DNA of 64,000 nucleotides from Escherichia phage slur09. The stretch is taken from sequence record NC_028840.1. The stretch is one strand, 5' to 3'. Below, one piece after another: positions 8,754-64,000 of this stretch. The stretch's first letter is position 1, and each line of letters begins with the position of its first letter. The position numbers and the translations under genes were made by a program. A model generated the notes under the pieces. It did no database searches and was not told where the DNA came from. It saw only the letters and a list, made by a program, of their open reading frames with translations.

Positions 8754-8761
8754 AAAGATAT

Positions 8762-8786
8762 AAGAAAAGGGGCCGAAGCCCCTCTA
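8762..8786 (-). terminator. intrinsic terminator hairpin (GGGGC-CGAA-GCCCC)
   Basis: GC stem with tetraloop and T-run on the minus strand downstream of ORF 8791..9564. Confidence 0.5.
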
Positions 8787-8790
8787 TTTA

Positions 8791-9564
8791 TTAGTCGTCC
8801 AGATCGCTTGCAGCTTCTGTGTCAATACCTTTCTGGGAGCCTGCATTGCTATTACCAGATTTGGCATCGTCATCTTTATTCTCACGACCCTCCATGAAGG
8901 CTAGAATTGCTTCTTTCTGCTCTTCATAGGTAGGAACCGGATAGGTTTGTTCCAGAGAAGGAACTTTTTCGAACTTAATGATGTCGCCATCTTCATCACA
9001 CATAGCTTCACCGATCAGATCTACATCCGCAGCATATTGCTTAGATTCCGCGCTGTTAGGATCTTGCAGCTTAATCTGGAACTGCATAGCAGCAATCTGC
9101 TGTACATCATACTCAGTATCGAAACCTTTACCTTTTTTCTCGATAGAAATATCAATATCAAACGGAGTTGCCAAACTCAACTGCTTCATGATAGACTGGA
9201 TGCCTTTCAGAATAGTAGCCTTGACTTCCATTACTTTCAGTTTGTTATCAGAACGGTCGATAACAAAAGCGATATAGTTTTTCTTCGGTTTCAGCGGAAC
9301 ACGATTACCATCTTTATCCAGTTCTTTCTCGAAGAAGCCCATCTCATGAACCGGATCAGCTTTACCACGAACAAAGCTCTCTTTGTCACGGTTAAAACGG
9401 AGACATTCGAAAGGAGCTACGTTACCCTCTTTATTAGTCAGCCAATAGACATAACGTGGAAGAACACCAGAAACGATACGAACACGAGTGATACCGTTGT
9501 TGAACTTCAGGAATTCGATTTTATCGTTAGAACCGCCAGTAGTTTCGCCCCAAGACTTAGCCAT
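8791..9564 (-). CDS. putative single-stranded DNA-binding protein (D11-like), acidic C-terminal tail
   Basis: 257 aa; acidic C-terminus ...DTEAASDLDD typical of SSB tails; replication-module context. Confidence 0.45.
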   Translation of the reverse strand: MAKSWGETTGGSNDKIEFLKFNNGITRVRIVSGVLPRYVYWLTNKEGNVAPFECLRFNRDKESFVRGKADPVHEMGFFEKELDKDGNRVPLKPKKNYIAFVIDRSDNKLKVMEVKATILKGIQSIMKQLSLATPFDIDISIEKKGKGFDTEYDVQQIAAMQFQIKLQDPNSAESKQYAADVDLIGEAMCDEDGDIIKFEKVPSLEQTYPVPTYEEQKEAILAFMEGRENKDDDAKSGNSNAGSQKGIDTEAASDLDD

Positions 9565-9841
9565 ATTTTATTTCCTCTTTAAAGATTAATTTTGATTTGT
9601 TAATTGCGATTAGTGGGTTAGTGTCGATTACTAAACGTGGTATCCATACTGGAACATATTGCATGTCCAAACTAGGATCGTTTGTAAACTTGTATTCGGC
9701 ATAATTTCGTAGACTTAAAATTCCTAGATATTCTGCCAGTTGTCTATTAGACAATTTATTTGGATTATCAACTATTGTTGATTCATTCAAAATGAATGAG
9801 GAACCGACCAATAATTGGTGAGCATCAGGCTCTGTAAGCAT
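9557..9841 (-). CDS. hypothetical protein
   Basis: ORF track; preceded on the minus strand by tandem promoter-like repeats. Confidence 0.5.
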   Translation of the reverse strand: MLTEPDAHQLLVGSSFILNESTIVDNPNKLSNRQLAEYLGILSLRNYAEYKFTNDPSLDMQYVPVWIPRLVIDTNPLIAINKSKLIFKEEIKYG

Positions 9842-9948
9842 TCTTTTGAATAACTTAATAATTAGGTCGGAATTTCCTCTAGCTAGTAAGTATAGCTTTT
9901 CATAATCGAAGAATTTAATTTTTGTTTTCTCCTCGAATTTATGTATAT

Positions 9949-9978
9949 ATTATACTAGATTTCGAGAGAATTTAGCAA
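9949..9978 (-). promoter_or_regulatory. T5-type early promoter (minus strand), one of two tandem copies
   Basis: rc TTGCTA-N18-TATAAT; 25-bp motif TCTCAAATTTATGTATATATTATAC repeated at about 9931 and 10034. Confidence 0.55.
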
Positions 9979-10061
9979 CTAAAATTTTTATTTTTCTGCT
10001 TCGGACTTTCTTATCAATCCGAAACTTTCTCTCTCAAATTTATGTATATATTATACATCAT

Positions 10062-11414
10062 TTATGAGCTGTTGCCAAATGCAATTTTAGCTAATTGAAC
10101 TGCTTTCTCCGGAGTCATGGTAATAGTTTTCCACCCGTTGTTACGATATACTGCCATACGTCCAGAAGCCTGTCTTAGTCCAGTGCCCCCTTTCATAATT
10201 AGATCTACAACAATAGGGTCGAGTTTACCTTCAACAATACGTTGAACACGACCTGCAAGCTGTTCAATGAGAGACTCATTATTAATAAGACTTCCCATTA
10301 TTAAACAAGATAGCTCATTAAGGGAAATACCTTCAGAGAAGATACTCTGAGCTGCTGCAAGTACACAAGGTCCACCTTTTGCTATATCTTCCTGGATTTT
10401 TAATCGGTCATCTAAGGGGGTTGCCCCTATAATTTCATATGTTGTAACACCACGCTGTGCAAGAGCTTCTAGTACTGTTTGGATTAACTCTGTTCTATCG
10501 CTTACAATGAGTACTTTATGCCCCATATTCACGTATAAATGTGCTAGATTTATAATAGTCTCTCGATATTCAGGATGATTATATACATCGTTAGCACGTA
10601 ATGCCCATGGTACGTTTTGGTTCCCTGATAACTCAACAGGTACGGAGTACCTATGGATTGTAGGTGCAACAGTATTATTAACCGGTGGGCTAAAGATCTT
10701 ATATCCAAAGAAATCTTTGAACATAACTTGTAGACCATCTTTTCTTTTTAATGTTCCAGATAGTCCAATCTTATAGCGAGCACATGATATTTCTAGGAAG
10801 TTAGTGAAAGTTGTAGCCACACAATGGTGAACTTCATCAACTATAACAGTACCGAATACTTTAGAAAGATTATTCGCATGCTTATTCACTGTTTGAATAT
10901 TACTGACCACAATTGGTGGATCAATATTGTATTTCCCAGAACCTATGATACCAGGTTCAAACCCAAACCATTTACGAACTTCTGCTGCCCACATTTCACG
11001 AATGGATGTATTCGTACAGATTACCAAAGTTTTCTGGCCAAATTTATACGCAAGTGCAAGGGCTAGGATAGTTTTACCAAACCCAGGCTTACCATTAATA
11101 ATACAGGTATCATCGCACTCTTCATATATTGGGAGCTGGTCTTCTTCACGCAGCTTGAACTTAGGTTTTGGTATATCTACCGGAGCTAATGTACGTTTAT
11201 CTACTAATTCGTATTTTACTCCTTTAGCATCTAATAAATCCAGACGCGTGATAGGAATCCACTTAATCTCTTTAGCAACAACACCACTATTCTTATACAT
11301 AATAGGGTATTTACTAGTCATTGTCTCTATGTGATAGGTGGTTTGCTTACTACAATAATCCCAAAGTTCATCATCGGGCTTGAAATAGGCTTTATTAGAT
11401 ATAACAACCTTCAT
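10062..11414 (-). CDS. ATP-dependent DNA helicase (D10-like, SF2)
   Basis: 450 aa; Walker A GKPGFGKT, DEVHH box, helicase C-terminal motifs. Confidence 0.85.
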   Translation of the reverse strand: MKVVISNKAYFKPDDELWDYCSKQTTYHIETMTSKYPIMYKNSGVVAKEIKWIPITRLDLLDAKGVKYELVDKRTLAPVDIPKPKFKLREEDQLPIYEECDDTCIINGKPGFGKTILALALAYKFGQKTLVICTNTSIREMWAAEVRKWFGFEPGIIGSGKYNIDPPIVVSNIQTVNKHANNLSKVFGTVIVDEVHHCVATTFTNFLEISCARYKIGLSGTLKRKDGLQVMFKDFFGYKIFSPPVNNTVAPTIHRYSVPVELSGNQNVPWALRANDVYNHPEYRETIINLAHLYVNMGHKVLIVSDRTELIQTVLEALAQRGVTTYEIIGATPLDDRLKIQEDIAKGGPCVLAAAQSIFSEGISLNELSCLIMGSLINNESLIEQLAGRVQRIVEGKLDPIVVDLIMKGGTGLRQASGRMAVYRNNGWKTITMTPEKAVQLAKIAFGNSS

Positions 11415-22169: not shown

Positions 22170-22842
22170 GTTTCAGGGCAGCCTTAACAGCTTCGTTAAT
22201 CAACGAAATTACTTCTTCACGAGTCCACTTGTATCCCAGAGATTTTACATCAACCCCTAGCTTTTCCAGATGTTTAACAGAAGCCAGCTCGTAATTCATA
22301 TAATGAACGTTCTGTTGTTTGCCTTCTGATAGAAGCCATACACGGTAACAACCAACAGGGTTATCCATTGCTTTTTTGATTTCACCAATACACTGGTATC
22401 CAGGAACCCAAACAAGCTCACCAACTGCAAATTCTTCTGCTACAGCATCATCAGGAATAATTGGAGGATTCAATGGATCTACAATATCGTTCAAACGAAG
22501 TAGAGCACCGTAGCGTTCCAGAACAGATTTAACCATTGCTACAGAGCGGTAATTACGATCAGCAATTTCTTCAAAAGAATCACCAGATAAATACTGCTCA
22601 ATAACGTTAGCTAACTCAATGCCTTCAATGAGTGTGCCACGTTTCTTTTTCTTCATTTCGGCAACTTGAATCTGGCGGTCTTGCCATTCTTCAATCATCC
22701 TTTCCATAGTTGGATTGGATGATACGCCGAGCATTTCACATGCTGCTTTCTTAGTACCACCGTTCTCCAGATGCTCTATAACCTTTTTAAAGACTTCATC
22801 CGGGATTTCATGGATGTGTTTCTTTCTACGAGAACCAGCCAT
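22138..22842 (-). CDS. putative DNA-binding protein (helix-turn-helix-like N-terminus)
   Basis: Start set at the internal ATG (MAGSRRKK) downstream of the minus-strand promoter at 22876-22904; ORF track extends to 22947. Confidence 0.5.
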   Translation of the reverse strand: MAGSRRKKHIHEIPDEVFKKVIEHLENGGTKKAACEMLGVSSNPTMERMIEEWQDRQIQVAEMKKKKRGTLIEGIELANVIEQYLSGDSFEEIADRNYRSVAMVKSVLERYGALLRLNDIVDPLNPPIIPDDAVAEEFAVGELVWVPGYQCIGEIKKAMDNPVGCYRVWLLSEGKQQNVHYMNYELASVKHLEKLGVDVKSLGYKWTREEVISLINEAVKAALKLDKEKGKRRE

Positions 22843-22875
22843 ATTTAAACTCCTCTCTCTCAAATTTATGAATCT

Positions 22876-22904
22876 ATTATACAGAAAAATTTTCCTGAAA
22901 GCAA
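22876..22904 (-). promoter_or_regulatory. T5-type promoter (minus strand)
   Basis: rc TTGCTT-N17-TATAAT. Confidence 0.55.
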
Positions 22905-22912
22905 ATAAATTT

Positions 22913-23155
22913 TTACGATTCCTTGAGCAAAGAAGCAAGTTCAGCATAGACTTTATCTAACTCAAAGCCGATGCGAAGAGACACGTTAGTTTTCCGTTGT
23001 TTAAGTAACCACTCGGATATGTTAGGGATGCCAGCTAATCTGTGTGGTACCACCCTACATAGCTTTTCCGAAGTGTCGTAAACAGGAACTTTACGTTCTT
23101 TTACTGGAAACTTCCTTGTCTCCCATTTTTTATTCTTCACTGTCATTTCTAGCAC
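22913..23155 (-). CDS. hypothetical protein
   Basis: ORF track, 80 aa. Confidence 0.4.
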   Translation of the reverse strand: MLEMTVKNKKWETRKFPVKERKVPVYDTSEKLCRVVPHRLAGIPNISEWLLKQRKTNVSLRIGFELDKVYAELASLLKES

Positions 23156-25919
23156 CTAGCTCTGCCATTGCTTCATCATGCATATGTTTCTCCTCATCAG
23201 TCATAAACTTATACGGGATTGGCATACACTCGATTTTACAGTAAGTTCTGTACCAGTCTACAATATTCTCCGTGTTCATATCCTTACCAATACCCATCAT
23301 ACCAAGATACATTCTGGCGTATTTTGGGTTAGCACTCTGACCTGTTTTAAGGAAGAAATCTTTCTTCTTACCTTTCAGAGCTTCTATGAATGGTTTGATA
23401 GTGACATTTGAACACTTCTTAATATCTTCCCAGAACATCTCGTGCATTTTATGGAAGAATGCGGCTCGATCATTCGGTTTATCCTTGATATACTGTTCAA
23501 CATGCTCAACTGTTACATCTTTAATAGACTCAAGATGATAATAGCGAACAAGAAGTAGTTTAGCTTCATACGCATCTGCATGGCGTGGAGCACAATAATC
23601 AGGGGTTGAATACAAAATGGCTTTGATTCGCTCTTCCGTATACTCTTTTCCCGCACCTTCGATAGTTCCCCAGCTTTCACTGAAAATATCAATAGTTGCA
23701 CCCTGATCAAGCAAGTAATAACGTAAAGTACTAGTATATTTTCTAGATTCCAGCTCCCTACGACGTGCGTATAATTGCTGTGCTAACTCCAGCCAACCTT
23801 CATCAATGTTATATTGCTCAGAACCTGCGGAGAATCCACTCGTAGATTTATCAATAAAATAATAAATGTTCTGGGCGCCACGGTCGCGCCTGATTGCTTG
23901 GAAACGCATGTTTGGCGCTTGGTTGCTGGTTCTAGTAATAACGAATACGTTATCAAAATAGTTGAAGTCAACACCACTAGTTACGGATGGACTACATAAT
24001 AAGCAATCAATTTGTTGATCAATTAGCTCATTAGTTGTGTAATCCAGAATACGTCGAATATCTACATCAGACGTAGAGTTTGAGTGGATTTCCTTAACTA
24101 ACGCACCCGTATTACGACGAAGTGCCATACCCTTCTCATTCAGTTCATCCGGCCCACAGTCAGATACTAGGATAGATTTCTCACCCATCTCTAGGGAAGT
24201 CTGAAGTGCAACCCAAATACTGGATTCATCAGGGAACTCATAAGCATGGGCTTTTGAGAGCATTTTACGATGATGATTGTAAAATGCAACCGGTTTATCA
24301 AAATCAATTAGAGAACCGTAGGCTTCAATAGTCTCAGCACTAATATCACCATCGGATAAGATTACAGTTTTAGCTGTCATGAGGATGTCACGTAGAACTT
24401 GAATACATTCGCGACGTTGTTTAACAACTGGGGCGAATAATAGATCATTCATTACAGCGTCACATTCATCAATAAAGATGGTGTCTATTTGACCAATAAA
24501 ACTTTTGAACTTATGCAAAGAGTGAATAGTTGTGGACATACGATCAATAGCTCCACGTTTAAAGTTGAGCATATCTACAGACTTATCATATTGTCCTGCG
24601 CTAAATTTCTTAGCGTTTGAAGATACCAGCGCCCTAGTATTTGTAACTGCTAAAAAGTTGCCAGGAAGAACACCTGCGTCCAGCCATTTAGTTACTGCCG
24701 TAGTTTTGCCAGTACCAAGACTTGCCTTAACAAATGTTATATGGCCTTTTGGGGGCACAATGTTAATCTTCAGGTATGGAACTTCTGGTGGAGAATCCAC
24801 TTCTAATTTCTTAAGAGGAACACCTTTCAGATTTAATGGAATCTCGCGTTTAGAATTATTAACAAACGCTTTGAGAGCCTGCTTACGACCGTTATTAAAG
24901 TAATCTTGAATATTACGACTGTTATCTTTAGTTGCAATATATTCAGATAAAGCGGGTTTAATCTCACGTTCTAGCCATGCGAAATCAACACCATCCTCTA
25001 ATGCTCTATGGTATAGTTTGGGGATAATACGCAAGTACACCCCATCCTCAGCTTCTTCCAATTCGCTGATGGTTTCTTCTACTTTATCAGACGCGATCTT
25101 TTTGCCTTTAATTTGGTCAAGTAAGGAATAGAATTCCTCTTTGAACTCCCCTCTAGTTGTTTCATAGTCAACCAGATTATTAGGCAAATTTACCTTCGAA
25201 CCTTTAACATACACCAGACGTGGCTTACTCTCCGCTTTAAACGGATCAACAATACCATCACTAAATAAAGGGTCGGCAAAATAGTGAAGCTGGACAGATG
25301 AATAATAAGCTAAGTCGGCAATATCAAAACCGAATTTTTGCTTACTACTATCATTGATAGACGTAAATAAGAACTTTAACTGACCTTGAGTTACCTTGAC
25401 GTTAGATTCTAGCATTAAGTGCATTCGGATACCTGGTTTTAGGCCAGCCGAAGACGATGCATGAGCAATAAACCCTGCATCAAGAGGAAACATGTCCTCA
25501 CTAATACTATTCAACATCTTAATAATGTGACGGGCCATACCTACAAGATTAAACTTGTCGTACCCACCGGTATCCAGGATACCATCCACGTCCATAGCAA
25601 TAATATTGCTAGGGTTGGATACATTAAAGTTACCTTTCTTACGTCGCACATTATTTTTAGGTGCAAGACATCGACCTCGCACCGCAACGATATGAGGGTC
25701 AGACGTTAAACGTCTCATAAGTGGTAACATTTCGGCAAGGCTTTGCGGGTCATGCTCTTCTATTACATCAAATTTGAAGGGCATAGAAGCTGGTTTACCT
25801 TCTGGATGCTCTTTCGAGAATCGCTTGGCAAAGGTATAATCTTCCGCTTTGATTTCTCGCCAAATACCTGTTGCTAAATCACGAGAAAATCCGGCGTGAC
25901 CTTGAAGAATAGAAAACAC
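23130..25919 (-). CDS. large replication-associated ATPase/helicase (D2-like, putative origin-binding)
   Basis: 929 aa; Walker A GTGKTTAV and Walker B-like FIDECD. Confidence 0.7.
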   Translation of the reverse strand: MFSILQGHAGFSRDLATGIWREIKAEDYTFAKRFSKEHPEGKPASMPFKFDVIEEHDPQSLAEMLPLMRRLTSDPHIVAVRGRCLAPKNNVRRKKGNFNVSNPSNIIAMDVDGILDTGGYDKFNLVGMARHIIKMLNSISEDMFPLDAGFIAHASSSAGLKPGIRMHLMLESNVKVTQGQLKFLFTSINDSSKQKFGFDIADLAYYSSVQLHYFADPLFSDGIVDPFKAESKPRLVYVKGSKVNLPNNLVDYETTRGEFKEEFYSLLDQIKGKKIASDKVEETISELEEAEDGVYLRIIPKLYHRALEDGVDFAWLEREIKPALSEYIATKDNSRNIQDYFNNGRKQALKAFVNNSKREIPLNLKGVPLKKLEVDSPPEVPYLKINIVPPKGHITFVKASLGTGKTTAVTKWLDAGVLPGNFLAVTNTRALVSSNAKKFSAGQYDKSVDMLNFKRGAIDRMSTTIHSLHKFKSFIGQIDTIFIDECDAVMNDLLFAPVVKQRRECIQVLRDILMTAKTVILSDGDISAETIEAYGSLIDFDKPVAFYNHHRKMLSKAHAYEFPDESSIWVALQTSLEMGEKSILVSDCGPDELNEKGMALRRNTGALVKEIHSNSTSDVDIRRILDYTTNELIDQQIDCLLCSPSVTSGVDFNYFDNVFVITRTSNQAPNMRFQAIRRDRGAQNIYYFIDKSTSGFSAGSEQYNIDEGWLELAQQLYARRRELESRKYTSTLRYYLLDQGATIDIFSESWGTIEGAGKEYTEERIKAILYSTPDYCAPRHADAYEAKLLLVRYYHLESIKDVTVEHVEQYIKDKPNDRAAFFHKMHEMFWEDIKKCSNVTIKPFIEALKGKKKDFFLKTGQSANPKYARMYLGMMGIGKDMNTENIVDWYRTYCKIECMPIPYKFMTDEEKHMHDEAMAELGARNDSEE

Positions 25920-29884: not shown

Positions 29885-31759
29885 TTATTTAGCTCGAATA
29901 TCCTGATGTTTCACCCTGCCCATCACCTCGTGCTGTTTGCCAGGGTTAAATGGACGAGCACCCGGATTTCCAAGATACCCACAAACTCGACGAGTTACTT
30001 CAAGAGTTTCGGGGTCATGATTACCACAGATAGGGCACTTAAATCCATCTTCGGATGCTATTGTTTCACCTAAGAATCCACATTTACCACAAGAATCCAC
30101 TGGAGTATTAATACCGAAGTAATGAACCTTACTAGCAGCATAATTAATAACCCATTCCAATGCATCTGGGAATCGTTTCATATCCGGTAATTCTACGTAG
30201 GAAATACACCCACCAGAAGCAATCGGAGTAAAGTTAGACTCATAATCAAATTTCACGTTAGGAGCAACTTTACGTTCCACATCAAGGTGGTGAGAGTTAG
30301 TGTAGTACCCTTTGGACAGAATATCTTCATGCTCCGGGAAATATTCACGGTCTAGACGACAAAAACGGTCACATAGGGATTCTGATGGTGTAGCATACAG
30401 GCTATAACCTAATTTAGTTTCTTCCTTCTTCTGATCGACTCTATCTCGCATGTACTGCAATACACGCTGAACAAACTTGATGCAGGTCTCGGACATTGTG
30501 TCTACATCTTTGCCAAACATGAACTGTAGCATTTCATGGCAACCAATATACCCTAGAGATACAGAAGCACGGTTATAGAAATGATCGAATACATACTCAT
30601 CAGGCCCTAAGCGTAATCCAAAGGCTCCTGACATATAGAGGATGGGTGCGGCTTTAGCTTGAATGTATTTTAAGCGATCAACTCTCCACTCCAATGCTTT
30701 TAACGCTGTATCCACACGTAGCTCAAGCAAATCAAAGAATAGATCAATATTCCCTTCAGCTTCGATAGCAATTCTAGGCAAGTTTACAGAAACAACACCT
30801 AAGTTATTACGGCCGGCAGTTTCACCATCTTCTGTAGCAGCTAGGAATGAACGGCAGCCCATAGAAACTTTGTAGTCTCCAGTAACTTCTACAACCTTGT
30901 CATAGCTGATATAATCTGGATACATACGTTCAGCAGTACATTTCATAGCTAACTTCTTGATGTCATAATTAACATCTCCTGGTTTCATATTTACACCATC
31001 ACGAAGTACAAATACCAGTTTCGGGAAGATAGCTGTACGTTTATTGATACCTAAGCCATCCATGCGTACTTTCAGTATTGCTTTCTGTACTAGACGTGCT
31101 TCCCAAGAAGTTCCTAGACCAAAACCAAAGGTAATAAATGGACTCTGACCATTAGAGTTGAACATGGTATTGATTTCATATTCTAAACCCTGACAAGCGT
31201 CATAGACTTCTTTTTCAGTCATCTCCGTAGCCATTACGGATGCTTTGGCTTCATCCTTAGTCCAACGTTTTGCAAACGCATGATTTTTATCATAGGATTT
31301 ACGAACATAAGGGGCTAATACTTCATCAAGGCGATCCACAGAAGTACCACCATACTGATGGGAGCTAACTTGAGTGATAATCTGAGCAGTAATAGCCGCC
31401 GCAGTAGTGATAGAATTTGGAGTGCTAATTTCAGCATTACCAACCTTCATACCATTCTTTAACATATCTTCCAGAGCTACCAGACAACAATTAGTCATGC
31501 CTAATGCAGCATAATCAGCATCATGGAAATGAATATCCCCAATCATATGAGCATTTCGAATCTGAATTGGCATTTCTTCTAGAATCAGATACTTACTCAA
31601 TTCGCCTGCAAGCATATCCCTTTGTGTAGGGAAACGTTCTGAGGGTTTATTGGCATTATTAAATAGCAGTTCTTCATCTGCTGACCCTTCGATAATCTCT
31701 TTGCAGTTTCTAATTAACGCCTGCATTTCTTTATATTTTAGTTCTTCATTACGATTCAT
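29885..31759 (-). CDS. nrdD: anaerobic ribonucleoside-triphosphate reductase (class III RNR)
   Basis: 624 aa; C-terminal glycyl-radical motif RVCGYLG and CxxC zinc site (CGKCG...CPICG). Confidence 0.92.
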   Translation of the reverse strand: MNRNEELKYKEMQALIRNCKEIIEGSADEELLFNNANKPSERFPTQRDMLAGELSKYLILEEMPIQIRNAHMIGDIHFHDADYAALGMTNCCLVALEDMLKNGMKVGNAEISTPNSITTAAAITAQIITQVSSHQYGGTSVDRLDEVLAPYVRKSYDKNHAFAKRWTKDEAKASVMATEMTEKEVYDACQGLEYEINTMFNSNGQSPFITFGFGLGTSWEARLVQKAILKVRMDGLGINKRTAIFPKLVFVLRDGVNMKPGDVNYDIKKLAMKCTAERMYPDYISYDKVVEVTGDYKVSMGCRSFLAATEDGETAGRNNLGVVSVNLPRIAIEAEGNIDLFFDLLELRVDTALKALEWRVDRLKYIQAKAAPILYMSGAFGLRLGPDEYVFDHFYNRASVSLGYIGCHEMLQFMFGKDVDTMSETCIKFVQRVLQYMRDRVDQKKEETKLGYSLYATPSESLCDRFCRLDREYFPEHEDILSKGYYTNSHHLDVERKVAPNVKFDYESNFTPIASGGCISYVELPDMKRFPDALEWVINYAASKVHYFGINTPVDSCGKCGFLGETIASEDGFKCPICGNHDPETLEVTRRVCGYLGNPGARPFNPGKQHEVMGRVKHQDIRAK

Positions 31760-52431: not shown

Positions 52432-52514
52432 GGGTCGTTAGCCAAGCGGTTTGGCGGTGGACTGTTAATCCATGTCGAAAGACAACGTAGGTTCGAATCC
52501 TACACGGCCCGCCA
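52432..52514 (+). tRNA. tRNA with Asn anticodon GTT on a long-variable-arm (type II) scaffold
   Basis: Acceptor GGGTCGT/ACGGCCC, G73, D-arm GCCA/TGGC, anticodon arm GTGGA-CTGTTAA-TCCAT, 13-nt variable arm with GTC-GAAA-GAC hairpin, T-arm GTAGG-TTCGAAT-CCTAC. Confidence 0.6.
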
Positions 52515-52616
52515 AATTCTGTGTAGAGTTAAGTAAACCGGTAGCCAACCAGCTATCATTGCTGACATCGAATTCAGCCACAGATACCATTTTCATTAAT
52601 AACTGAGGAAACAAGC

Positions 52617-52802
52617 ATGTCCAAGAATGTAATTGCACAGTTAGAAGTTCATCGTGATAGCACTATCAACAATATTGAAGTTGAGAAGAAATACATCGAA
52701 GAACTTAAACATGATATACTAGTAAGTCTTAATCGTCTTAATGTACGAAAAGACTTTCTTAAAGAACTTAATGCAGCTATTGAAAAACTCAAAGCTGAGT
52801 AA
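52617..52802 (+). CDS. hypothetical protein
   Basis: ORF track, 61 aa. Confidence 0.45.
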   Translation: MSKNVIAQLEVHRDSTINNIEVEKKYIEELKHDILVSLNRLNVRKDFLKELNAAIEKLKAE

Positions 52803-52811
52803 ATGAATTAT

Positions 52812-52888
52812 GCGACCGGGGCTGGCTTGGTAATGGTACTCCCCTGTCACGGGAGAGAATGTGGGTTCGAATCCCATCGGTCGCGCCA
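52812..52888 (+). tRNA. tRNA-Asp (anticodon GTC)
   Basis: Acceptor GCGACCG/CGGTCGC, anticodon arm CTCCC-CTGTCAC-GGGAG, T-arm GTGGG-TTCGAAT-CCCAT, encoded CCA. Confidence 0.75.
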
Positions 52889-52914
52889 AACTAAACTAGC
52901 ACGAGAAATATGCT

Positions 52915-53262
52915 ATGATTAATGCTAAAGAAGAATTGTTACTTGCCCTAAAGAATACTAATTCTGAAGTTAAGTGTATTAAGATAGAATTCGGTTATTA
53001 TGGGGACAAAGAAGTTTGGGTATTACCCGTAGGTTATACAGAAAAAGATATTGAAGATTTTCTAAATAATCTAGACTTTAAATATGATTCTGGTTTCGGT
53101 GGACAATTGCTTTATGGTAACGTATGGTTTACTGATGGAACTTGGTTAGAACGTGGTGAATATGATGGTTCTGAATGGTGGGAATATAAGACTACACCAG
53201 CAATTCCAGAGGAATGTCGAACAATTAATGGTGAAGTAGATCATACATTACTATTAAATTAA
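52915..53262 (+). CDS. hypothetical protein
   Basis: ORF track, 115 aa. Confidence 0.5.
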   Translation: MINAKEELLLALKNTNSEVKCIKIEFGYYGDKEVWVLPVGYTEKDIEDFLNNLDFKYDSGFGGQLLYGNVWFTDGTWLERGEYDGSEWWEYKTTPAIPEECRTINGEVDHTLLLN

Positions 53263-53384
53263 CAAAATTTCAGTGCAGAACACGGAGCTAGCAATTCGGA
53301 AGTGCCGACTCATGATAGGCTGCCTATGTACTTGCGAAGCGGTCGTGTCCAAGACTCGGACTCTTGCACTGAAAACAATCAAAC

Positions 53385-53505
53385 ATTCTAGCGTGGTTGA
53401 TGGGGAAACCAGCTTGGCTAGGGCAGAAGCTCGTTCGATTCGAGTGAAAGAATGGTTCTCGTAAGTCCGCACAAGTGATAACAGGTTCGAGTCCTGTCTA
53501 GAATG
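53385..53505 (+). ncRNA. tRNA-like RNA (about 121 nt) with a roughly 53-nt insertion in the anticodon arm
   Basis: Perfect 7-bp acceptor ATTCTAG/CTAGAAT; D-arm TGGT/ACCA with GG-containing loop; anticodon-type stem CTTG/CAAG enclosing 53418-53470; T-arm ACAGG-TTCGAGT-CCTGT. Confidence 0.4.
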
Positions 53506-53514
53506 ACACTATAA

Positions 53515-53637
53515 AGTTTACTTATTATGTAGGTTCCGATAGATCGGCGGGTCTATTCTGGCATTTAAGAGAGGTCTCGCAAACTTCTTTGTCAGCCGTG
53601 GGGTTGATAGCCTCCAGGTGGCCTACACAATAAGTAA
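53515..53637 (+). repeat. 17-bp inverted repeat (TTTACTTATTATGTAGG / CCTACACAATAAGTAAA, one mismatch) flanking an 89-bp core
   Basis: Arms at 53515-53531 and 53621-53637 are reverse complements with a single mismatch; no ORF inside. Confidence 0.6.
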
Positions 53638-53654
53638 ATTTATTAAAAATTCAT

Positions 53655-53683
53655 TTGCTATTCTGCTTAATTATCTGTATAAT
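53655..53683 (+). promoter_or_regulatory. T5-type promoter
   Basis: TTGCTA-N17-TATAAT. Confidence 0.6.
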
Positions 53684-53715
53684 ATATTTTATAAAGTGAA
53701 GAGAAGGAAAGCAAA

Positions 53716-53913
53716 ATGAAAAAAGTTTTACTGCTGTCTGTATTCCTACTCACTGGTTGTTTTAAACTTGACTCAACCATTAATAAAGAGTATGAATTTG
53801 CTAAAAATTTCTGTGGCGGAGAGAGTAATATAAAGAATTTCTACATATATAGTACAATTCCTAGTACCGTTTATTGTGTAGACGGACGAATTATTAATAT
53901 TCCTCCACAATAA
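53716..53913 (+). CDS. small lipoprotein (lipobox LLTGC)
   Basis: 65 aa; MKKVLLLSVFLLTGC signal peptide with lipobox Cys. Confidence 0.55.
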   Translation: MKKVLLLSVFLLTGCFKLDSTINKEYEFAKNFCGGESNIKNFYIYSTIPSTVYCVDGRIINIPPQ

Positions 53914-53922
53914 AAGAATTAA

Positions 53923-53998
53923 CAGTGCGTAGCGCAGTTGGTAGCGTGGGAGCCTTGGATGCTTCGGGTCGCAGGTTCGAGTCCTGCCGCACTGACCA
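53923..53998 (+). tRNA. tRNA-Pro (anticodon TGG)
   Basis: Acceptor CAGTGCG/CGCACTG, D-arm GCGC/GCGT, anticodon arm GGAGC-CTTGGAT-GCTTC, T-arm GCAGG-TTCGAGT-CCTGC, encoded CCA. Confidence 0.8.
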
Positions 53999-54004
53999 AA
54001 CAAT

Positions 54005-54082
54005 TGCGGGTTAGATCTCTGGTAGAGATCGCTAGTCTCATAAGCTAGAAAGAGGTAGGTTCGATTCCTGCACCCGCTTCCA
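54005..54082 (+). tRNA. tRNA with CAT anticodon (Met/Ile2/initiator candidate), U1-U72 mismatch
   Basis: Acceptor TGCGGGT/ACCCGCT (first pair U-U), D-arm GATC/GATC, anticodon arm CTAGT-CTCATAA-GCTAG, T-arm GTAGG-TTCGATT-CCTGC. Confidence 0.6.
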
Positions 54083-54102
54083 TTTTAATAGAGGATTTCG
54101 AA

Positions 54103-54267
54103 ATGAAAGTATTTCGATTAGTAGTAAGTGACAAACGTTTAGGTAAGAATACCTCAAAATCCTTACTTGCTCATTATGGAAAAGACGAGAAAGAAGTAAT
54201 GGCGGAGTTTGGGATTAATCACCCTTACTTGAAAGTTCACTCTATTAAGGAAGTTTATGCTTATTAA
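54103..54267 (+). CDS. hypothetical small protein (54 aa)
   Basis: ATG shortly after the tRNA; below ORF-track cutoff; stop overlaps the start of ORF 54257. Confidence 0.35.
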   Translation: MKVFRLVVSDKRLGKNTSKSLLAHYGKDEKEVMAEFGINHPYLKVHSIKEVYAY

Positions 54268-54730
54268 CAAGGTGCTTCAAGCTCTAGATCTTCCAGAGCT
54301 CTTTACTATTACCGACTCCTTAATACATCGGTATATGGAAAAGTATAATGAAATCTCTGGTAAAAAAGGGAAACTAAAATCCTCAGAATTTAAGTTCTGT
54401 TATAGAATGGCAGCATTAAACCTCTTAAAGTATAAGAGGGAGCATAAAATTCCTATAACAGAAGGATTTGTCTATGTAATAGGTAATCCAGCATGGCCTG
54501 GACTATATAAGATAGGCATGACAGTAGATGTGAACGAAAGACTGTCTAGTTATCAAACATATTCGCCTTATCGTGATTACAAGTTATACCATTTCAGATT
54601 CTCCTCAGACAAGAGAAGAACTGAAAAAGCATTACATAACCTTCTGAAAGACTACAAAATATCAGGAGAATGGTTTGAAGTACCTCTGTTAGACGCCTTC
54701 AAACTATTAGTAGAAAATTTGGATTGCTAA
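54257..54730 (+). CDS. T5orf172-domain protein (GIY-YIG-like, putative homing endonuclease family)
   Basis: 157 aa; GFVYVIGNPAWPGLYKIGMT...RLSSYQTYSP motif, paralog of 50740..51231. Confidence 0.6.
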   Translation: MLINKVLQALDLPELFTITDSLIHRYMEKYNEISGKKGKLKSSEFKFCYRMAALNLLKYKREHKIPITEGFVYVIGNPAWPGLYKIGMTVDVNERLSSYQTYSPYRDYKLYHFRFSSDKRRTEKALHNLLKDYKISGEWFEVPLLDAFKLLVENLDC

Positions 54731-54798
54731 CTCAACTGGATAAGAGTACCGGACCTTTAATCCGTCAGTTCTGGGTTCGAATCCCAGGCAATCCACCA
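54721..54798 (+). tRNA. tRNA-Lys (anticodon TTT)
   Basis: Acceptor GGATTGC/GCAATCC, D-arm ACTC/GAGT, anticodon loop CCTTTAA, T-arm CTGGG-TTCGAAT-CCCAG, encoded CCA. Confidence 0.8.
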
Positions 54799-54816
54799 AT
54801 TTCAAGAAAAACTCAG

Positions 54817-54845
54817 TTGCTTGATGCTTAATTTCTTGTTATAAT
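54817..54845 (+). promoter_or_regulatory. T5-type promoter driving a 1.2-kb ORF-free tRNA/ncRNA transcript
   Basis: TTGCTT-N17-TATAAT; no ORF of 60 aa or more until 56023. Confidence 0.6.
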
Positions 54846-55083
54846 ATTTATATAAATTGATGAGGAGAAATCCTCATCATAGTTCACTAAGGTATTAGCT
54901 CGACCTAGGACTGGCTGCCAAAAAGCACGATCCCTTCTACTTGGGAGGAGTTCTAGATTAGTCCACTAGATTCAGTGGCAACTGAGTAGTGTATCGGGTT
55001 TGCGAGATGACGTAGTTCCTTCCGCTCGAAGCGAAGGTGCTGTAGTTACGCCGAGCTAATAGCCTTAGTAAACTAAAGAATTT

Positions 55084-60521: not shown

Positions 60522-60933
60522 TTTAGACCCTAGAATTAAATTTGCAATTACAGAAATCCAAGATCAAATTGATGAGGACTTCACTGTTTGGTCAAGGTCT
60601 GGTAATGGAGAATATTGCCAGCTTTATAGCATGAAAATGGGTATCTCAATTGAGCTTAATATCAACTCTGAAGGTAGAGTAGAAGCCCAACCCATGTTCA
60701 GTGTTCCAGGCTTCTCTGGATTTGTTTCAGGTATAAAATTGTGTCTACCAAATAACCATCTTCATCGAGTTATTTGTCAGCTAGAGACTATCAAGCATTT
60801 CTTGCCAGAAGATAACATTAATGACTACTACCACGAAGTTGTAGCAGCTCATATGATGAAAGAATGTAAACGTCGGAGAGAAGAACGTGAAAAGGCTAAA
60901 CATCAACAGCACGGTGCAGATTCCAGCAACTAA
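60514..60933 (+). CDS. hypothetical protein
   Basis: ATG overlapping the upstream stop (ATGAATAA); ORF track starts at 60490. Confidence 0.5.
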   Translation: MNNLDPRIKFAITEIQDQIDEDFTVWSRSGNGEYCQLYSMKMGISIELNINSEGRVEAQPMFSVPGFSGFVSGIKLCLPNNHLHRVICQLETIKHFLPEDNINDYYHEVVAAHMMKECKRRREEREKAKHQQHGADSSN

Positions 60934-61183
60934 GGATATTTTAACATTCCTACGTAGTGAGAATACCCAGTTTTGGCATGACTATATTCAGGAAAATAAA
61001 AATAATCCAGATGTAGTTGCTTTTGCCAAGAAACGTATTGGGGAGTATAAAGATCCAGAGATTAAAGATGGGATGATTACTATGCAGTTATGGATAGCTA
61101 TGAAAACCTTTGGACCCACTATGAGTCTAGGATTTACTCCACTGTTTACTGATATTCTAATTAATGAAAAGGATCTGAAATGA
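60887..61183 (+). CDS. hypothetical protein (overlaps upstream gene by 47 nt)
   Basis: ORF track; no alternative in-frame start downstream of the upstream stop. Confidence 0.4.
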   Translation: MKRLNINSTVQIPATKDILTFLRSENTQFWHDYIQENKNNPDVVAFAKKRIGEYKDPEIKDGMITMQLWIAMKTFGPTMSLGFTPLFTDILINEKDLK

Positions 61184-61464
61184 TTATCTCTCCCTTTGCT
61201 CTTTGGTTCGTCATCGGGTCTGTGGTTGCTATTTACAGCTTGATTGATGATCTATATATTTCTAAGAATAAAGATGTAATATTATACGTTATACATAAAA
61301 CCCGACCATTAGACCTACCACCTCTTGATGATAAAACATTACTCAGGTGTGCTAGATCTATGATATTTATTATGGATATTCTTTTAGGGCCAGCATCTGT
61401 ACTTTTCTTTTATAGAAAAACTCGTAATATGAAAAAGTTTAAAGCTGAAATGCGGAATATTTAA
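61180..61464 (+). CDS. hypothetical membrane protein
   Basis: 94 aa; hydrophobic N-terminus. Confidence 0.45.
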   Translation: MIISPFALWFVIGSVVAIYSLIDDLYISKNKDVILYVIHKTRPLDLPPLDDKTLLRCARSMIFIMDILLGPASVLFFYRKTRNMKKFKAEMRNI

Positions 61465-62073: not shown

Positions 62074-62772
62074 ATGAGGATTATTTCTAAATTCGCAGAT
62101 GTATATGATTTGCAGAACAGTTTGTTTGATCCCGATCGTGTTTGGGAGCGTAAAACTGAAGAGCTACTGGTTAAAGTAACTGATGATGCAGAAAAGAACA
62201 TCGTGCATAGTCGCCAGGTATTTCGTGAAGATTCACTATCTTTCCGTGGCGACTTCGAATACTTTGTAAATCCATTGTTCGTTGCAGGTGAAGTTTACTG
62301 GTTACACGAGCTGTACTGCTGGCATCCAGAGTTTAGCTTCAAAACGTTCGACCTCGACACTATGTTCGATAAAATGGAAGAGATGGGATTGCATGCTCGC
62401 TCTTACTTAATGGATAAGAGTCGTGGAGATGTTCGTGAAACAATGCGTGATTTGCTCGTTGAAGCAAAACCTAAAGCAGAACGTATCTTGTCCGAACTGC
62501 GTGTACCGATTGCATATGTGAAAGGTATCAAGAAGAACGATAACGATGATGTCCGTAACTTCGTGATTCAGACTAACATTCGTTTCCATCAGTCAGGTAT
62601 TCCGTGGCAGGAAATTGAAAGTAACTTATACCGTTTACACCAAGTTCTCGAACAGTATATCTTCGGTGTACTAGGAACTGGTGAGCCTGATATGATTAAA
62701 GTATCAGATAAAGATAGGTTAGCAGCGCATGGATTTGATACAAAAACTTCTTTCAGGAATATGGCACGGTAA
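62074..62772 (+). CDS. hypothetical protein
   Basis: ORF track, 232 aa. Confidence 0.5.
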   Translation: MRIISKFADVYDLQNSLFDPDRVWERKTEELLVKVTDDAEKNIVHSRQVFREDSLSFRGDFEYFVNPLFVAGEVYWLHELYCWHPEFSFKTFDLDTMFDKMEEMGLHARSYLMDKSRGDVRETMRDLLVEAKPKAERILSELRVPIAYVKGIKKNDNDDVRNFVIQTNIRFHQSGIPWQEIESNLYRLHQVLEQYIFGVLGTGEPDMIKVSDKDRLAAHGFDTKTSFRNMAR

Positions 62773-63157
62773 GTGGTATATCCTGGGAGCAGGTCTAGCG
62801 ATAGGCATCGGGTTCGGTGCTTATCACTTAGTTAATAAGGTTGAGACTCTAGCAGGTGATCTTGCAGTAGCTACTAAAAAGATTTCTTCTCTAGAGACTT
62901 CCCTTAATAAGGTGAAAGCTGAAAGCGAACTTCGTGAGACTAGAATGAATCAGTATTTCACGATGAATAATATTTCGCAAGCAGATCTAGACAAAAAGAT
63001 TAAGCAGTTAGACAAAGCTCTTAGTCGCCAAGATATTATAGCTGCAAAGCCTGGATTGGTAACATTAATTGCTAAAAAGCAGAATAAAGAGTTCGAGGAA
63101 AGATTAGCGTGTTTAACTGGAAACTTGGAATACTGCTCGCAGCCGCAATCACAATAA
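62729..63157 (+). CDS. hypothetical membrane-anchored coiled-coil protein (overlaps upstream gene)
   Basis: ORF track; N-terminal hydrophobic segment. Confidence 0.4.
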   Translation: MDLIQKLLSGIWHGKWYILGAGLAIGIGFGAYHLVNKVETLAGDLAVATKKISSLETSLNKVKAESELRETRMNQYFTMNNISQADLDKKIKQLDKALSRQDIIAAKPGLVTLIAKKQNKEFEERLACLTGNLEYCSQPQSQ

Positions 63158-63462
63158 CAGGCTGTGCAGAAGAAATAAAACCAGAGCCATCTCATGAGTT
63201 AAAGCAAGCTCATGTAGACTGGCCTAAAGGACTTCAACCTTGTAGCTTTGACTTTAAGTTTGAAAAGAAACTAGCTACAAATGGAGAAGATGGCGTAGTA
63301 GTTGTTGTACCATATAAAGATTGGAATGCAAAAGCAAAATGTGAGGAAGCAGTTTACTCTTACATTTCACGACTGACTGGTATGGTTTGCTTCTATCGCC
63401 AAGATTTACAAGAAAAACGTTGCTTAGTTTACTATCCACCAATTAACAATAGGAAAGATTAA
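63109..63462 (+). CDS. putative lipoprotein (lipobox ITGC)
   Basis: 117 aa; MFNWKLGILLAAAITITGC signal/lipobox. Confidence 0.5.
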   Translation: MFNWKLGILLAAAITITGCAEEIKPEPSHELKQAHVDWPKGLQPCSFDFKFEKKLATNGEDGVVVVVPYKDWNAKAKCEEAVYSYISRLTGMVCFYRQDLQEKRCLVYYPPINNRKD

Positions 63463-63463
63463 T

Positions 63464-64000
63464 GTGGTGACACAAGAAAGATTAAAGGAATTACTTGAAT
63501 ATACCCCTGATACTGGATTATTTACTAGATTAGTGAGTGTTGGTAATCAAAAAGCGGGTAATATTGCAGGTACACTTAGGAAAGATGGGTATATACAAAT
63601 AAAGGTAGATGGAAAACCTTACCTAGCACATCAGCTAGCATTCCTTTATATGGAGGGCTATTTTCCTGAGATGGTGGATCACATAAACCGCGTAGGTGGT
63701 GACAATCGTTGGCTAAATCTTAGAGAGTCCAATAACCAAGAAAACCAGAGAAATAAAGCTGCCAGAAGTAAATCTGGTTATCTAGGAGTTAGCTGGAAGA
63801 AACGTGACCAGAAGTGGGAAGTAAACGTTGCTAATTCTAAGGGTAATAATATATACGGAGGTCACTTTGATTACCTATATCTAGGATCCGCCGTTAAAAG
63901 AGCCAATGAACTTCGTTTACAATTGCACGGTGAAAATGCTGTTATAGAAACTTTTGATTCTACAAAATCTTTACCAACTTTAGAGGAACTTAATAAATGA
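63464..64000 (+). CDS. HNH-family homing endonuclease
   Basis: 178 aa; N-terminus MVTQERLKELLEYTPDTGLFTRLVS homologous to 8277..8753 and 15805..16338; ends with a stop at the window edge. Confidence 0.7.
   Translation: MVTQERLKELLEYTPDTGLFTRLVSVGNQKAGNIAGTLRKDGYIQIKVDGKPYLAHQLAFLYMEGYFPEMVDHINRVGGDNRWLNLRESNNQENQRNKAARSKSGYLGVSWKKRDQKWEVNVANSKGNNIYGGHFDYLYLGSAVKRANELRLQLHGENAVIETFDSTKSLPTLEELNK

What the first reader, a model, noticed from the sequence alone, without database searches (positions are those of the whole stretch)
53716..53913. Small lipoprotein gene inside the tRNA cluster
A 65-aa ORF with a classical lipobox (LLTGC) has its own promoter. Small phage lipoproteins such as T5 Llp mediate superinfection exclusion by blocking the receptor. 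A second lipobox ORF is at 63109..63462.
Basis: partly seen in the sequence, partly recalled or inferred. Interest (0 to 1): 0.4.

Follow-up and report, generated by a model that had tools for sequence, protein, structure and literature searches.

The report
Small tethered periplasmic phage protein
A real, conserved 65-residue lipoprotein gene sits behind a fixed early promoter in the tRNA cluster of a T5-like phage; it is neither the phage's outer-membrane lysis protein (as databases label it) nor a relative of the T5 receptor-blocking protein Llp, and its function is still unknown.

Summary
Window 53716..53913 (+) encodes a 65-aa protein with a canonical lipoprotein signal (LLTG|C15). It has a Shine-Dalgarno and a TTGCTA-17-TATAAT promoter that is the counterpart of T5's annotated early promoter P13a, and it lies between stable-RNA genes and tRNA-Pro/tRNA-fMet. 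It is under purifying selection (dN/dS about 0.1-0.17).

It belongs to a small family found only in phage and viral sequences (phrog_6073; 38 representatives at 50% identity). The family shares a ~50-residue domain with two invariant cysteines, predicted as one helix plus three strands, with no match to any solved fold.

There is no homology to Llp/Cor beyond the signal peptide. The lineage has its own Llp-type gene beside the receptor-binding protein gene, outside the window, and the ORF does not track the RBP allele.

The public label "Rz-like spanin" is also unsupported. No i-spanin partner lies nearby, and the spanin census places the spanins elsewhere.

Family members swap anchors (lipobox with F/Y/D at +2, or a plain TM helix). 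This points to a membrane-tethered periplasmic binding module, probably an early envelope-protection or exclusion factor. Its function is untested. Interest is modest.

The parts
53655..53683 (+). Sigma-70 early promoter TTGCTA-17-TATAAT, counterpart of T5 promoter P13a
   Evidence: Consensus scan, 10 of 12 matches. Nearly identical in T5, IrmaTschudi and EH3, and falls inside the T5 feature annotated 'promoter P13a'.
53703..53708 (+). Shine-Dalgarno GAAGGA, 7 nt before the ATG
   Evidence: Read. The surrounding AAGGAAA core is conserved in all four phages of alignment A4, including T5, where a different ORF follows.
53716..53913 (+). 65-aa prolipoprotein gene, member of phrog_6073
   Evidence: ORF. 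PHROG hit E 1e-28. dN/dS 0.11-0.17. 82 phage records hold it. 38 family representatives in 1.84 billion proteins.
53716..53757 (+). Signal peptide, residues 1-14 (MKKVLLLSVFLLTG) with lipobox L-T-G
   Evidence: PS51257-type rule passed. Lipobox conserved in all T5-like and Vequintavirinae copies. Cleavage and lipidation are inferred, not shown.
53758..53910 (+). Mature 51-residue domain: Cys15 (lipidated, Phe at +2), helix about 18-33, strands 39-43, 50-54 and 59-62; invariant Cys33 and Cys54 (probable disulphide)
   Evidence: AlphaFold2 models, core pLDDT 87-98. Invariant Cys and the motifs W/F-A--FCGG and V-C-DGR--IP. The disulphide is inferred from invariance and periplasmic location.
53923..54082 (+). 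tRNA-Pro(UGG) and tRNA-fMet(CAU), 9 nt after the stop codon; probably co-transcribed with the ORF
   Evidence: ARAGORN and Rfam. No + strand terminator-like site in 52500..55000. Same arrangement in every T5-like copy. Co-transcription is inferred.
53384..53629 (+). Upstream flank: homologs of T5 stable RNAs rna2 (53384-53508) and rnaIV (53527-53629)
   Evidence: 98% identical to T5, mapped from T5 annotation. No Rfam family. Together with the promoter it forms the conserved left flank of the cassette.
62729..63157 (+). i-spanin of the phage's real spanin pair (not part of the 65-aa gene's system)
   Evidence: Position and overlapped arrangement match T5.045, annotated Rz-like spanin, T4 PseT-like. 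The spanin census lists an overlapped 147/117-aa pair for Spc35.
   Evidence: phrog_812 E 3.5e-30. Same length and position as T5.044, noted in the T5 record as similar to T4 PseT.2. The census lists T5 and Spc35 o-spanins of 117 aa.

Best explanation
SHOWN: the ORF is a genuine accessory gene of T5-like phages. It encodes a protein of about 50 residues after signal-peptide removal. The protein has a canonical lipoprotein signal, two invariant cysteines, and a confidently predicted small fold of one helix packed on a three-stranded sheet. It occupies a fixed slot directly behind a conserved early sigma-70 promoter and ribosome-binding site, just upstream of tRNA-Pro and tRNA-fMet. In T5 and 112 other records the same slot holds an unrelated 52-aa two-TM protein, so it is an exchangeable cassette for small envelope proteins. 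The protein belongs to a family found only in phage and viral sequences: T5-like phages, rV5-like Vequintavirinae, a lambdoid-type contig and other phage contigs. In that family the conserved domain is attached by interchangeable anchors: a lipobox with F, Y, D or another residue at +2, or a plain N-terminal TM helix. It is not the phage's spanin and not a homolog of Llp or Cor. INFERRED: the protein is exported, lipidated at Cys15, oxidised to a Cys33-Cys54 disulphide, and held on a very short tether at a membrane surface facing the periplasm. Because anchors that predict inner-membrane retention or TM insertion are common in the family, the working site is probably the periplasmic face of the inner membrane, or at least not exclusively the outer membrane. 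MOST LIKELY FUNCTION (speculative): an early-expressed binding module that protects the infected cell at the envelope. It would act as an exclusion or immunity factor that intercepts a periplasm-exposed component, such as the DNA-ejection or wall-piercing apparatus of a competing phage, or an import machinery. The logic is that of T4 Imm/Sp or the Ltp lipoprotein of phage TP-J34, rather than jamming the outer-membrane receptor as Llp does. My confidence is about 0.85-0.9 for the descriptive part and about 0.35 for the functional class.
For: Real gene: dN/dS 0.11-0.17 and a third-position bias; 82 phage records. Lipoprotein signal conserved. Promoter equals T5 P13a, and homology to T5 is 98% upstream but breaks exactly at the start codon. 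Alternative cassette T5.066 in 113 records. Accessory: 82 records hold the ORF, whereas 513 share part of the surrounding 1-kb stretch; two copies are frameshifted. Family and anchors: exhaustive profile search, alignment, anchor census of 20 lipobox, 10-11 lipobox with Asp at +2, and 4 TM-only. One TM-anchored member is itself in a T5-related phage. Y and D interchange at +2 within Vequintavirinae. Fold: pLDDT 80-83, core 87-98. Contexts are always early or accessory gene blocks with no recurring neighbour. The family was not found in 185,579 bacterial species genomes. By contrast, the presumed outer-membrane lipoproteins of these phages have small residues at +2: window o-spanin C-A, SCF Llp C-A, T5 Llp C-S.
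Against: No functional evidence of any kind was found: no homology to a characterised protein, no significant fold match, and no paper on this gene. Lipidation, disulphide formation and localisation are predictions. SignalP and LipoP were not available. That Phe or Tyr at +2 retains lipoproteins in the inner membrane is my recollection of Seydel et al. 1999 and could not be verified here. By the plain Asp-only '+2 rule' the window protein would go to the outer membrane. Hosts of the metagenomic members are unknown, so enterobacterial sorting rules may not apply to them. About a third of members have +2 residues typical of outer-membrane lipoproteins.
Confidence: 0.4

Rival explanations
1. Llp/Cor-type superinfection exclusion. 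An outer-membrane lipoprotein binds the periplasmic face of the phage's TonB-dependent receptor (BtuB, FepA or FhuA) and, by reverse allostery, closes the extracellular loops.
For: Same general design as Llp: a small early-expressed lipoprotein with two extra conserved cysteines (Llp features from PMC9586334). By the Asp-only +2 rule, Phe at +2 would allow outer-membrane sorting.
Against: No sequence or fold similarity beyond the signal peptide. The lineage already has an RBP-linked Llp-type gene. The ORF is not adjacent to the RBP gene and is decoupled from the RBP allele. It is present in myoviruses of the rV5 group, which are very different phages. Many homologs have Asp at +2 or TM anchors.
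Confidence: 0.12
2. o-spanin or spanin-like lysis protein, as labelled 'Rz-like spanin' in PHROGs, pharokka and RefSeq annotations. An outer-membrane lipoprotein pairs with an inner-membrane i-spanin to fuse the membranes at lysis.
For: Strong match to phrog_6073, whose label is 'Rz-like spanin'. The label is copied into many records. It is a small lipoprotein with periplasmic cysteines.
Against: A complete overlapped spanin pair exists elsewhere in the window and in T5. The curated spanin census places the Spc35 and PVP-SE1 spanins at other coordinates than this family. No i-spanin-like neighbour is present in any of five lineages. The gene is missing from most T5-like phages. Members with Asp at +2 or TM anchors could not reach the outer membrane. 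The domain is predicted to be compactly folded, not extended or proline-rich.
Confidence: 0.04
3. Lysis-timing regulator (antiholin of the T4 RI type). A membrane-tethered periplasmic domain binds the periplasmic domain of the T-type holin.
For: T5-like phages have a T4-type holin with a large periplasmic domain (Pfam Phage_holin_T, E 8e-114). An inner-membrane-tethered small periplasmic domain is the right topology.
Against: T-type holins are in about 2,000 records, whereas the lipoprotein is in about 66 T5-like records and in none of the Tevenvirinae seen. The family also occurs in a lambdoid-type contig and in rV5-like phages. There is no similarity to RI.
Confidence: 0.07
4. Host-takeover factor: an inhibitor or modulator of a host periplasmic or inner-membrane function (for example a murein hydrolase, protease, FtsH/HflKC, TonB or Tol), serving phage development rather than exclusion.
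For: Early expression. A compact disulphide-bonded mini-domain is typical of inhibitors. There is a weak, non-significant resemblance to the FtsH periplasmic domain (TM 0.52, E 0.5). A phage SPFH/Band_7 gene lies in the same region and is adjacent to the family member in L017.
Against: No significant similarity to any inhibitor family. The patchy, dispensable distribution fits a conditional benefit better than a core developmental role.
Confidence: 0.25
5. Spurious or decaying ORF that merely fills the leader of a tRNA transcript.
For: A lipobox arises by chance about once per shuffled window. Two records carry frameshifts.
Against: Purifying selection, invariant cysteines and motifs across 38 family representatives down to 24-30% identity, and a confident fold.
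Confidence: 0.02

Closest known systems
T5 Llp / Cor family of superinfection-exclusion lipoproteins (phrog_1119)
   Same: A small phage lipoprotein of 60-90 aa as precursor, expressed early, facing the periplasm, with two non-lipidated conserved cysteines. It is dispensable and moron-like.
   Different: No sequence or fold homology. It is not next to the RBP gene and does not co-vary with it. It is present in addition to a bona fide Llp-type gene. Its predicted disulphide joins the helix end to strand 2, rather than tying the termini together as in Llp. Family members have inner-membrane or TM anchors.
Two-component spanin o-subunit (lambda Rz1, T4 PseT.2, T5.044)
   Same: A small lipoprotein with periplasmic cysteines, and it shares the database label.
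   Different: It has no i-spanin partner and is not in the spanin census. The phage has a separate complete pair. The gene is not universal among relatives. The domain is compactly folded, and the +2 residues are atypical.
T4 Imm and Sp (spackle), and lipoprotein Ltp of Streptococcus phage TP-J34 (named from my own knowledge)
   Same: Early or constitutive small envelope proteins, tethered at or facing the periplasmic side of the cytoplasmic membrane, that block a step after adsorption (wall piercing or DNA entry) by superinfecting phage. This is the mechanistic analogy I favour.
   Different: No homology was detected: no PHROG, Pfam or PDB hit. The analogy rests on topology, timing and accessory status only. 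No exclusion phenotype has been tested.
T5.066 (52-aa, two TM segments)
   Same: It occupies exactly the same slot behind promoter P13a and before tRNA-Pro. It is also a small envelope protein of unknown function.
   Different: The sequence and topology are unrelated, and the listed records do not overlap between the two cassettes.

Membership tests
Llp/Cor superinfection-exclusion lipoproteins | N-terminal lipoprotein signal with lipobox | tested here: met
   LLTG-C15 passes the PS51257-type rule. Conserved in close homologs.
Llp/Cor superinfection-exclusion lipoproteins | Sequence homology of the mature domain to Llp or Cor | tested here: not met
   hhalign against T5 Llp aligns residues 1-24 only. 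The PHROG Cor hit is E 0.087 over residues 1-20.
Llp/Cor superinfection-exclusion lipoproteins | Gene adjacent to the receptor-binding protein gene | tested here: not met
   In SCF the RBP is at 106304-108064 and the ORF at 73341-73538. A separate Llp-type gene sits next to the RBP.
Llp/Cor superinfection-exclusion lipoproteins | Co-variation with RBP allele or receptor | tested here: not met
   ORF copies 98-100% identical occur with RBPs 64-73% identical (MM-1, ABTNLsp4, S124). Most phages with similar RBPs lack the ORF.
Llp/Cor superinfection-exclusion lipoproteins | Fold similar to Llp | tested here: not met
Llp/Cor superinfection-exclusion lipoproteins | Outer-membrane localisation and binding to the receptor plug | not testable with these tools
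   Phe at +2. The family includes members with Asp at +2 and with TM anchors. Needs fractionation and binding assays.
Two-component spanin, o-spanin | Cognate i-spanin gene embedded, overlapping or adjacent | tested here: not met
   No ORF with an N-terminal TM segment next to it, and no neighbour family recurs, in the window, PVP-SE1, L017, L018 or L020.
Two-component spanin, o-spanin | Listed as the spanin of its phage in the curated census | tested here: not met
   The census gives Spc35 22433-23161 and PVP-SE1 60594-61283. The family members are at Spc35 31494-31688 and PVP-SE1 130942-131154.
Two-component spanin, o-spanin | Obligate outer-membrane lipoprotein across the family | tested here: not met
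   10-11 members have Asp at +2 and 4 have TM anchors without a lipobox Cys.
Two-component spanin, o-spanin | Needed for lysis, hence present in all close relatives that lack another spanin | tested here: not met
   A complete pair lies at 62729..63462. The ORF is in only 82 records, while 513 share part of the surrounding 1-kb stretch.
Unimolecular spanin (T1 gp11 type) | Lipobox plus a C-terminal TM segment | tested here: not met
   The C-terminus is ...DGRIINIPPQ, with no hydrophobic segment.
phrog_6073 (uncharacterised family despite its label) | Significant full-length profile match | tested here: met
   E 1.2e-28 over residues 1-63 of 65. The family was rebuilt independently.
T4 RI-type antiholin | Co-occurrence with a T-type holin and homology to RI | tested here: not met
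   T-holin is in 1,983 records, the ORF in 82 with no Tevenvirinae among them. No PHROG hit to RI.

The most novel reading that the evidence does not exclude
The family is a previously unrecognised class of phage-encoded, inner-membrane-tethered periplasmic mini-domains, about 50 residues with one disulphide and a fold with no solved relative. Virulent phages would deploy it early to shield the infected cell, for example by blocking genome entry of competitors or colicin/TonB-Tol traffic. It would be traded as a plug-in cassette behind a fixed promoter and RBS in the T5 tRNA cluster, alternating with other small envelope proteins such as T5.066.
Probability: 0.25. Interest if true: 0.6.

Novelty: new variant of a known kind. 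Interest (0 to 1): 0.3.

Why it matters
There are three practical points. First, a widely propagated annotation ("Rz-like spanin" for phrog_6073, copied into RefSeq and pharokka-annotated genomes) is very probably wrong. It gives T5-like and rV5-like phages a phantom third spanin, which matters for lysis-cassette analyses and for vetting therapeutic phages. Second, T5-like phages, which are common biocontrol and therapy candidates, carry a second small envelope lipoprotein besides Llp. If it excludes other phages or colicins, it would affect cocktail design. Third, the slot behind P13a shows how small envelope proteins are swapped between conserved RNA-gene flanks, which makes it a convenient natural site for testing accessory genes. 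None of this is a surprise in kind, because small phage lipoproteins of unknown function are common.

Tried and rejected
1. Spanin reading: rejected on synteny, the census, distribution and anchors.
2. Llp/Cor homology: rejected.
3. Homology to the window's own o-spanin: only the signal peptide aligns.
4. Antiholin idea: no co-occurrence with T-type holins.
6. Pfam, NCBIfam, PADLOC and a PDB-sequence profile search: nothing significant. A sushi-repeat-like C-terminal motif at E 0.02 was judged a local chance resemblance.
7. Search for a conserved neighbour or partner gene: none.
8. Bacterial and prophage homologs: none in two genome scans; the single hit covers only the 15-residue search pattern.
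9. Attempt to verify from the literature that Phe/Tyr/Trp/Gly/Pro at +2 retain lipoproteins in the inner membrane: the original paper is not held, and citing papers restate only the Asp rule. This therefore stays a recollection.
The first rows show T, A, S and K.
11. Literature on this gene: none found.

Full report
WHAT THE WINDOW IS. The window is part of a T5-like phage genome (Demerecviridae). The stretch 53300-54258 is 99.7% identical to Salmonella phage SCF and 96-97% identical to FFH_1, SP15, SPC35 and others. ARAGORN finds 21 tRNA genes between 45.4 and 58.2 kb. The finding lies between tRNA-Asp (52812-52888) and tRNA-Pro (53923-53998).

OBSERVATION. The ORF is exactly as described: 53716..53913 on the + strand, 65 aa, MKKVLLLSVFLLTGCFKLD.... 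It passes a PROSITE PS51257-type lipoprotein rule, with Lys2/Lys3, an uncharged core, and L-T-G-C with Cys at position 15. A GAAGGA Shine-Dalgarno precedes the ATG by 7 nt. The promoter scan gives TTGCTA-17-TATAAT at 53655..53683, 10 of 12 matches.

Alignment with T5 shows that this promoter is the counterpart of the feature annotated "promoter P13a" in the T5 record. The 385 nt upstream are 98% identical to T5 and include homologs of the T5 stable RNAs rna2 and rnaIV. No + strand terminator-like site follows, and tRNA-Pro starts 9 nt after the stop codon. The ORF is therefore probably the first cistron of an mRNA-tRNA co-transcript (inference).

IS IT MORE THAN CHANCE? Base-shuffled copies of the window yield about one each, so the lipobox alone proves nothing. 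Conservation does.
- tblastn finds the protein in 82 phage records: 56 at 95% identity or more, others at 63-88%, and about 14 at 40-46% in Vequintavirinae.
- Among diverged T5-like copies, differences pile up at third codon positions. dN/dS is 0.11-0.17 in three of the four pairs where dS could be estimated and 0.38 in the fourth.
- The lipobox Cys and two further cysteines (Cys33, Cys54) are invariant in the T5-like and Vequintavirinae copies.

So it is a real protein-coding gene.

IT IS AN ACCESSORY CASSETTE. 513 phage records match part of the surrounding 1-kb stretch, but only 82 hold the ORF. In all T5-like carriers it sits in the same place, just 5' of tRNA-Pro and tRNA-fMet. In T5 itself the slot holds T5.066, an unrelated 52-aa protein with two TM segments. 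Homology between T5 and the window breaks exactly at the start codon, while the promoter and most of the RBS are shared. The T5.066 type is in 113 records, and none of the listed ones is also listed for the lipoprotein. Two records have 1-2 bp frameshifts in the lipoprotein gene.

THE PUBLIC LABEL 'Rz-LIKE SPANIN' DOES NOT HOLD. The protein matches phrog_6073, labelled "Rz-like spanin" (E 1e-28). That label appears in many records. The evidence against it is as follows.
- The window contains a complete overlapped spanin pair, an i-spanin at 62729..63157 and an o-spanin at 63109..63462 (phrog_812). These correspond to T5.045 and T5.044, which the T5 record relates to the T4 PseT spanin genes. 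In SCF and T5 the pair lies two to three genes from the holin and endolysin.
- The curated spanin census of Kongari et al. 2018 lists the spanins of Spc35 at 22433-23161 (147/117 aa, overlapped) and of PVP-SE1 at 60594-61283. The members of this family lie at Spc35 31494-31688 and PVP-SE1 130942-131154.
- No neighbour with an N-terminal TM segment is present in the window, PVP-SE1 or three further contigs, and the neighbours are unrelated to one another.
- The gene is absent from most T5-like phages.

IT IS NOT AN Llp/Cor HOMOLOG. Profile comparison with T5 Llp aligns only the signal peptide. The PHROG Cor hit is E 0.09 over residues 1-20. SCF has an 88-aa "Cor superinfection exclusion protein" divergently next to its RBP gene, at 105952-108064 and outside the window. 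That is the arrangement described for llp and oad in T5.

The 65-aa gene is decoupled from the RBP. Copies that are 98-100% identical occur in MM-1, ABTNLsp4 and S124, whose RBPs are 64-73% identical to SCF's. Only 17 records have an RBP at least 95% identical to SCF's, against 56 for the ORF.

THE FAMILY. An exhaustive profile search of 1.84 billion representatives gives 38 hits, nearly all 60-90 aa. The alignment shows a conserved mature domain, (Y/F)xWAxxFCGG ... VxCxDGRxxDIP, with two invariant cysteines. AlphaFold2 predicts one helix followed by three strands. Core pLDDT is 87-98, and Cys33 sits at the helix end and Cys54 at the end of strand 2. Foldseek finds nothing significant in the PDB, and in BFVD only members of the same family. 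The best whole-domain resemblance, the FtsH periplasmic domain, is not significant. Pfam, NCBIfam, PADLOC and PDB-sequence searches are empty. Two scans of 185,579 bacterial species genomes found no relative.

Contexts are early or accessory blocks of phage contigs: between RecT and YqaJ, in a replication/nin-like region, and among small genes of large phages.

THE ANCHOR VARIES, WHICH IS THE MOST INFORMATIVE FEATURE. Of 35 representatives, about 20 have a lipobox with a non-Asp residue at +2 (F 5, Y 3, N 3, K 2, others). Another 10-11 have a lipobox with Asp at +2, the enterobacterial inner-membrane retention signal (PMC4623201). Four have no lipobox cysteine but an N-terminal TM helix.

One TM-anchored member (P0043) is in a T5-related phage, since its SPFH protein is 77% identical to the window's. 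Within Vequintavirinae, Y and D interchange at +2. The presumed outer-membrane lipoproteins of these phages have A or S at +2. From memory, Seydel et al. 1999 found that Phe, Tyr, Trp, Gly and Pro at +2 also retain a reporter lipoprotein in the inner membrane. I could not verify this here.

Taken together, the domain does not need the outer membrane. It probably works on a short tether at the periplasmic face of the inner membrane. This argues against both the o-spanin and the Llp-type mechanism, independently of the synteny arguments.

MECHANISM. Shown: a conserved, early-promoter-driven, exported and membrane-tethered mini-domain that is an exchangeable accessory cassette. Inferred: lipidation, a disulphide, and the site of action. 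Proposed at about 0.35: an envelope-protection or exclusion factor that binds a periplasm-exposed target close to the membrane, analogous in logic to T4 Imm/Sp or the Ltp lipoprotein (named from my own knowledge).

Rivals are a host-function modulator (0.25), an Llp-type receptor blocker (0.12), an antiholin (0.07; no co-occurrence with T-type holins), a spanin (0.04) and a spurious ORF (0.02).

NOVELTY AND VERDICT. The sequence is already in dozens of public genomes as "hypothetical protein", "lipoprotein" or "Rz-like spanin". No paper on it was found in the searched library. It is best described as a new variant of a known kind: a small phage envelope lipoprotein with an unrelated predicted fold, interchangeable anchors and a fixed cassette slot. 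Interest is modest at 0.3. The most useful concrete results are the correction of the spanin annotation and the anchor-swap argument about where the protein acts.

Noticed in passing
window 53384-53508 and 53527-53629: Homologs of the T5 stable RNAs rna2 (tRNA-like) and rnaIV, 98% identical to T5 although the downstream ORF is completely replaced. ARAGORN does not call them and no Rfam family matches. The T5 record gives their function as unknown.
   Followed up: partly
window 53716 (start codon) compared with T5 NC_005859 32593-32751: The slot behind promoter P13a is polymorphic. A T5.066-type 52-aa two-TM ORF is in 113 records and the lipoprotein in about 66 T5-like records. Homology breaks exactly at the start codon while the promoter and RBS are shared, so this is a natural cassette-exchange site.
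   Followed up: partly
window 54257-54730: A 157-aa ORF absent from the otherwise 99.7% identical phage SCF (the match stops at 54258). Its counterpart in IrmaTschudi is annotated as a putative homing endonuclease. Its 3' end overlaps tRNA-Lys (54721).
   Followed up: no
window 45500-46447: The T5.080 homolog is annotated 'lipoprotein' in the T5 and SCF records but has no lipobox cysteine. It is a TM-anchored SPFH/Band_7 protein (Pfam E 2e-17). A 77% identical homolog lies about 750 bp upstream of the TM-anchored family member in contig L017.
   Followed up: partly
L021 (phage S124) 7888-10027 compared with L011 (SCF) 7953-10065: The Llp-type proteins of S124 and SCF are 97% identical, yet the adjacent receptor-binding proteins are only 65% identical. 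This is unexpected if Llp and the RBP co-evolve with the receptor.
   Followed up: no
L007 (KKP_3831) 1501-1700; L008 (KPP2018) 4001-4200: These copies of the 65-aa gene have 1-2 bp indels in simple runs. They are either pseudogenes or sequencing errors, and are annotated as truncated ORFs.
   Followed up: no
window 53618-53719: A 33-aa GTG ORF annotated as a hypothetical protein in SCF spans the promoter and Shine-Dalgarno of the lipoprotein gene. It is probably a spurious gene call.
   Followed up: no
residues 49-65 of the protein (window about 53860-53910): The C-terminal hairpin motif V-x-C-x-D-G-R-x-x-x-I-P resembles the C-terminal motif of sushi/CCP repeats (complement factor H; summed E 0.02). 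I judged this a local chance resemblance.
   Followed up: no
window 63464-64000: An ORF running off the window end directly after the o-spanin. In SCF the deoxynucleoside monophosphate kinase gene follows the o-spanin directly, and the spanin pair lies about 590 bp further along in the window than collinearity with SCF predicts. This is probably another inserted gene; it was not analysed.
   Followed up: no
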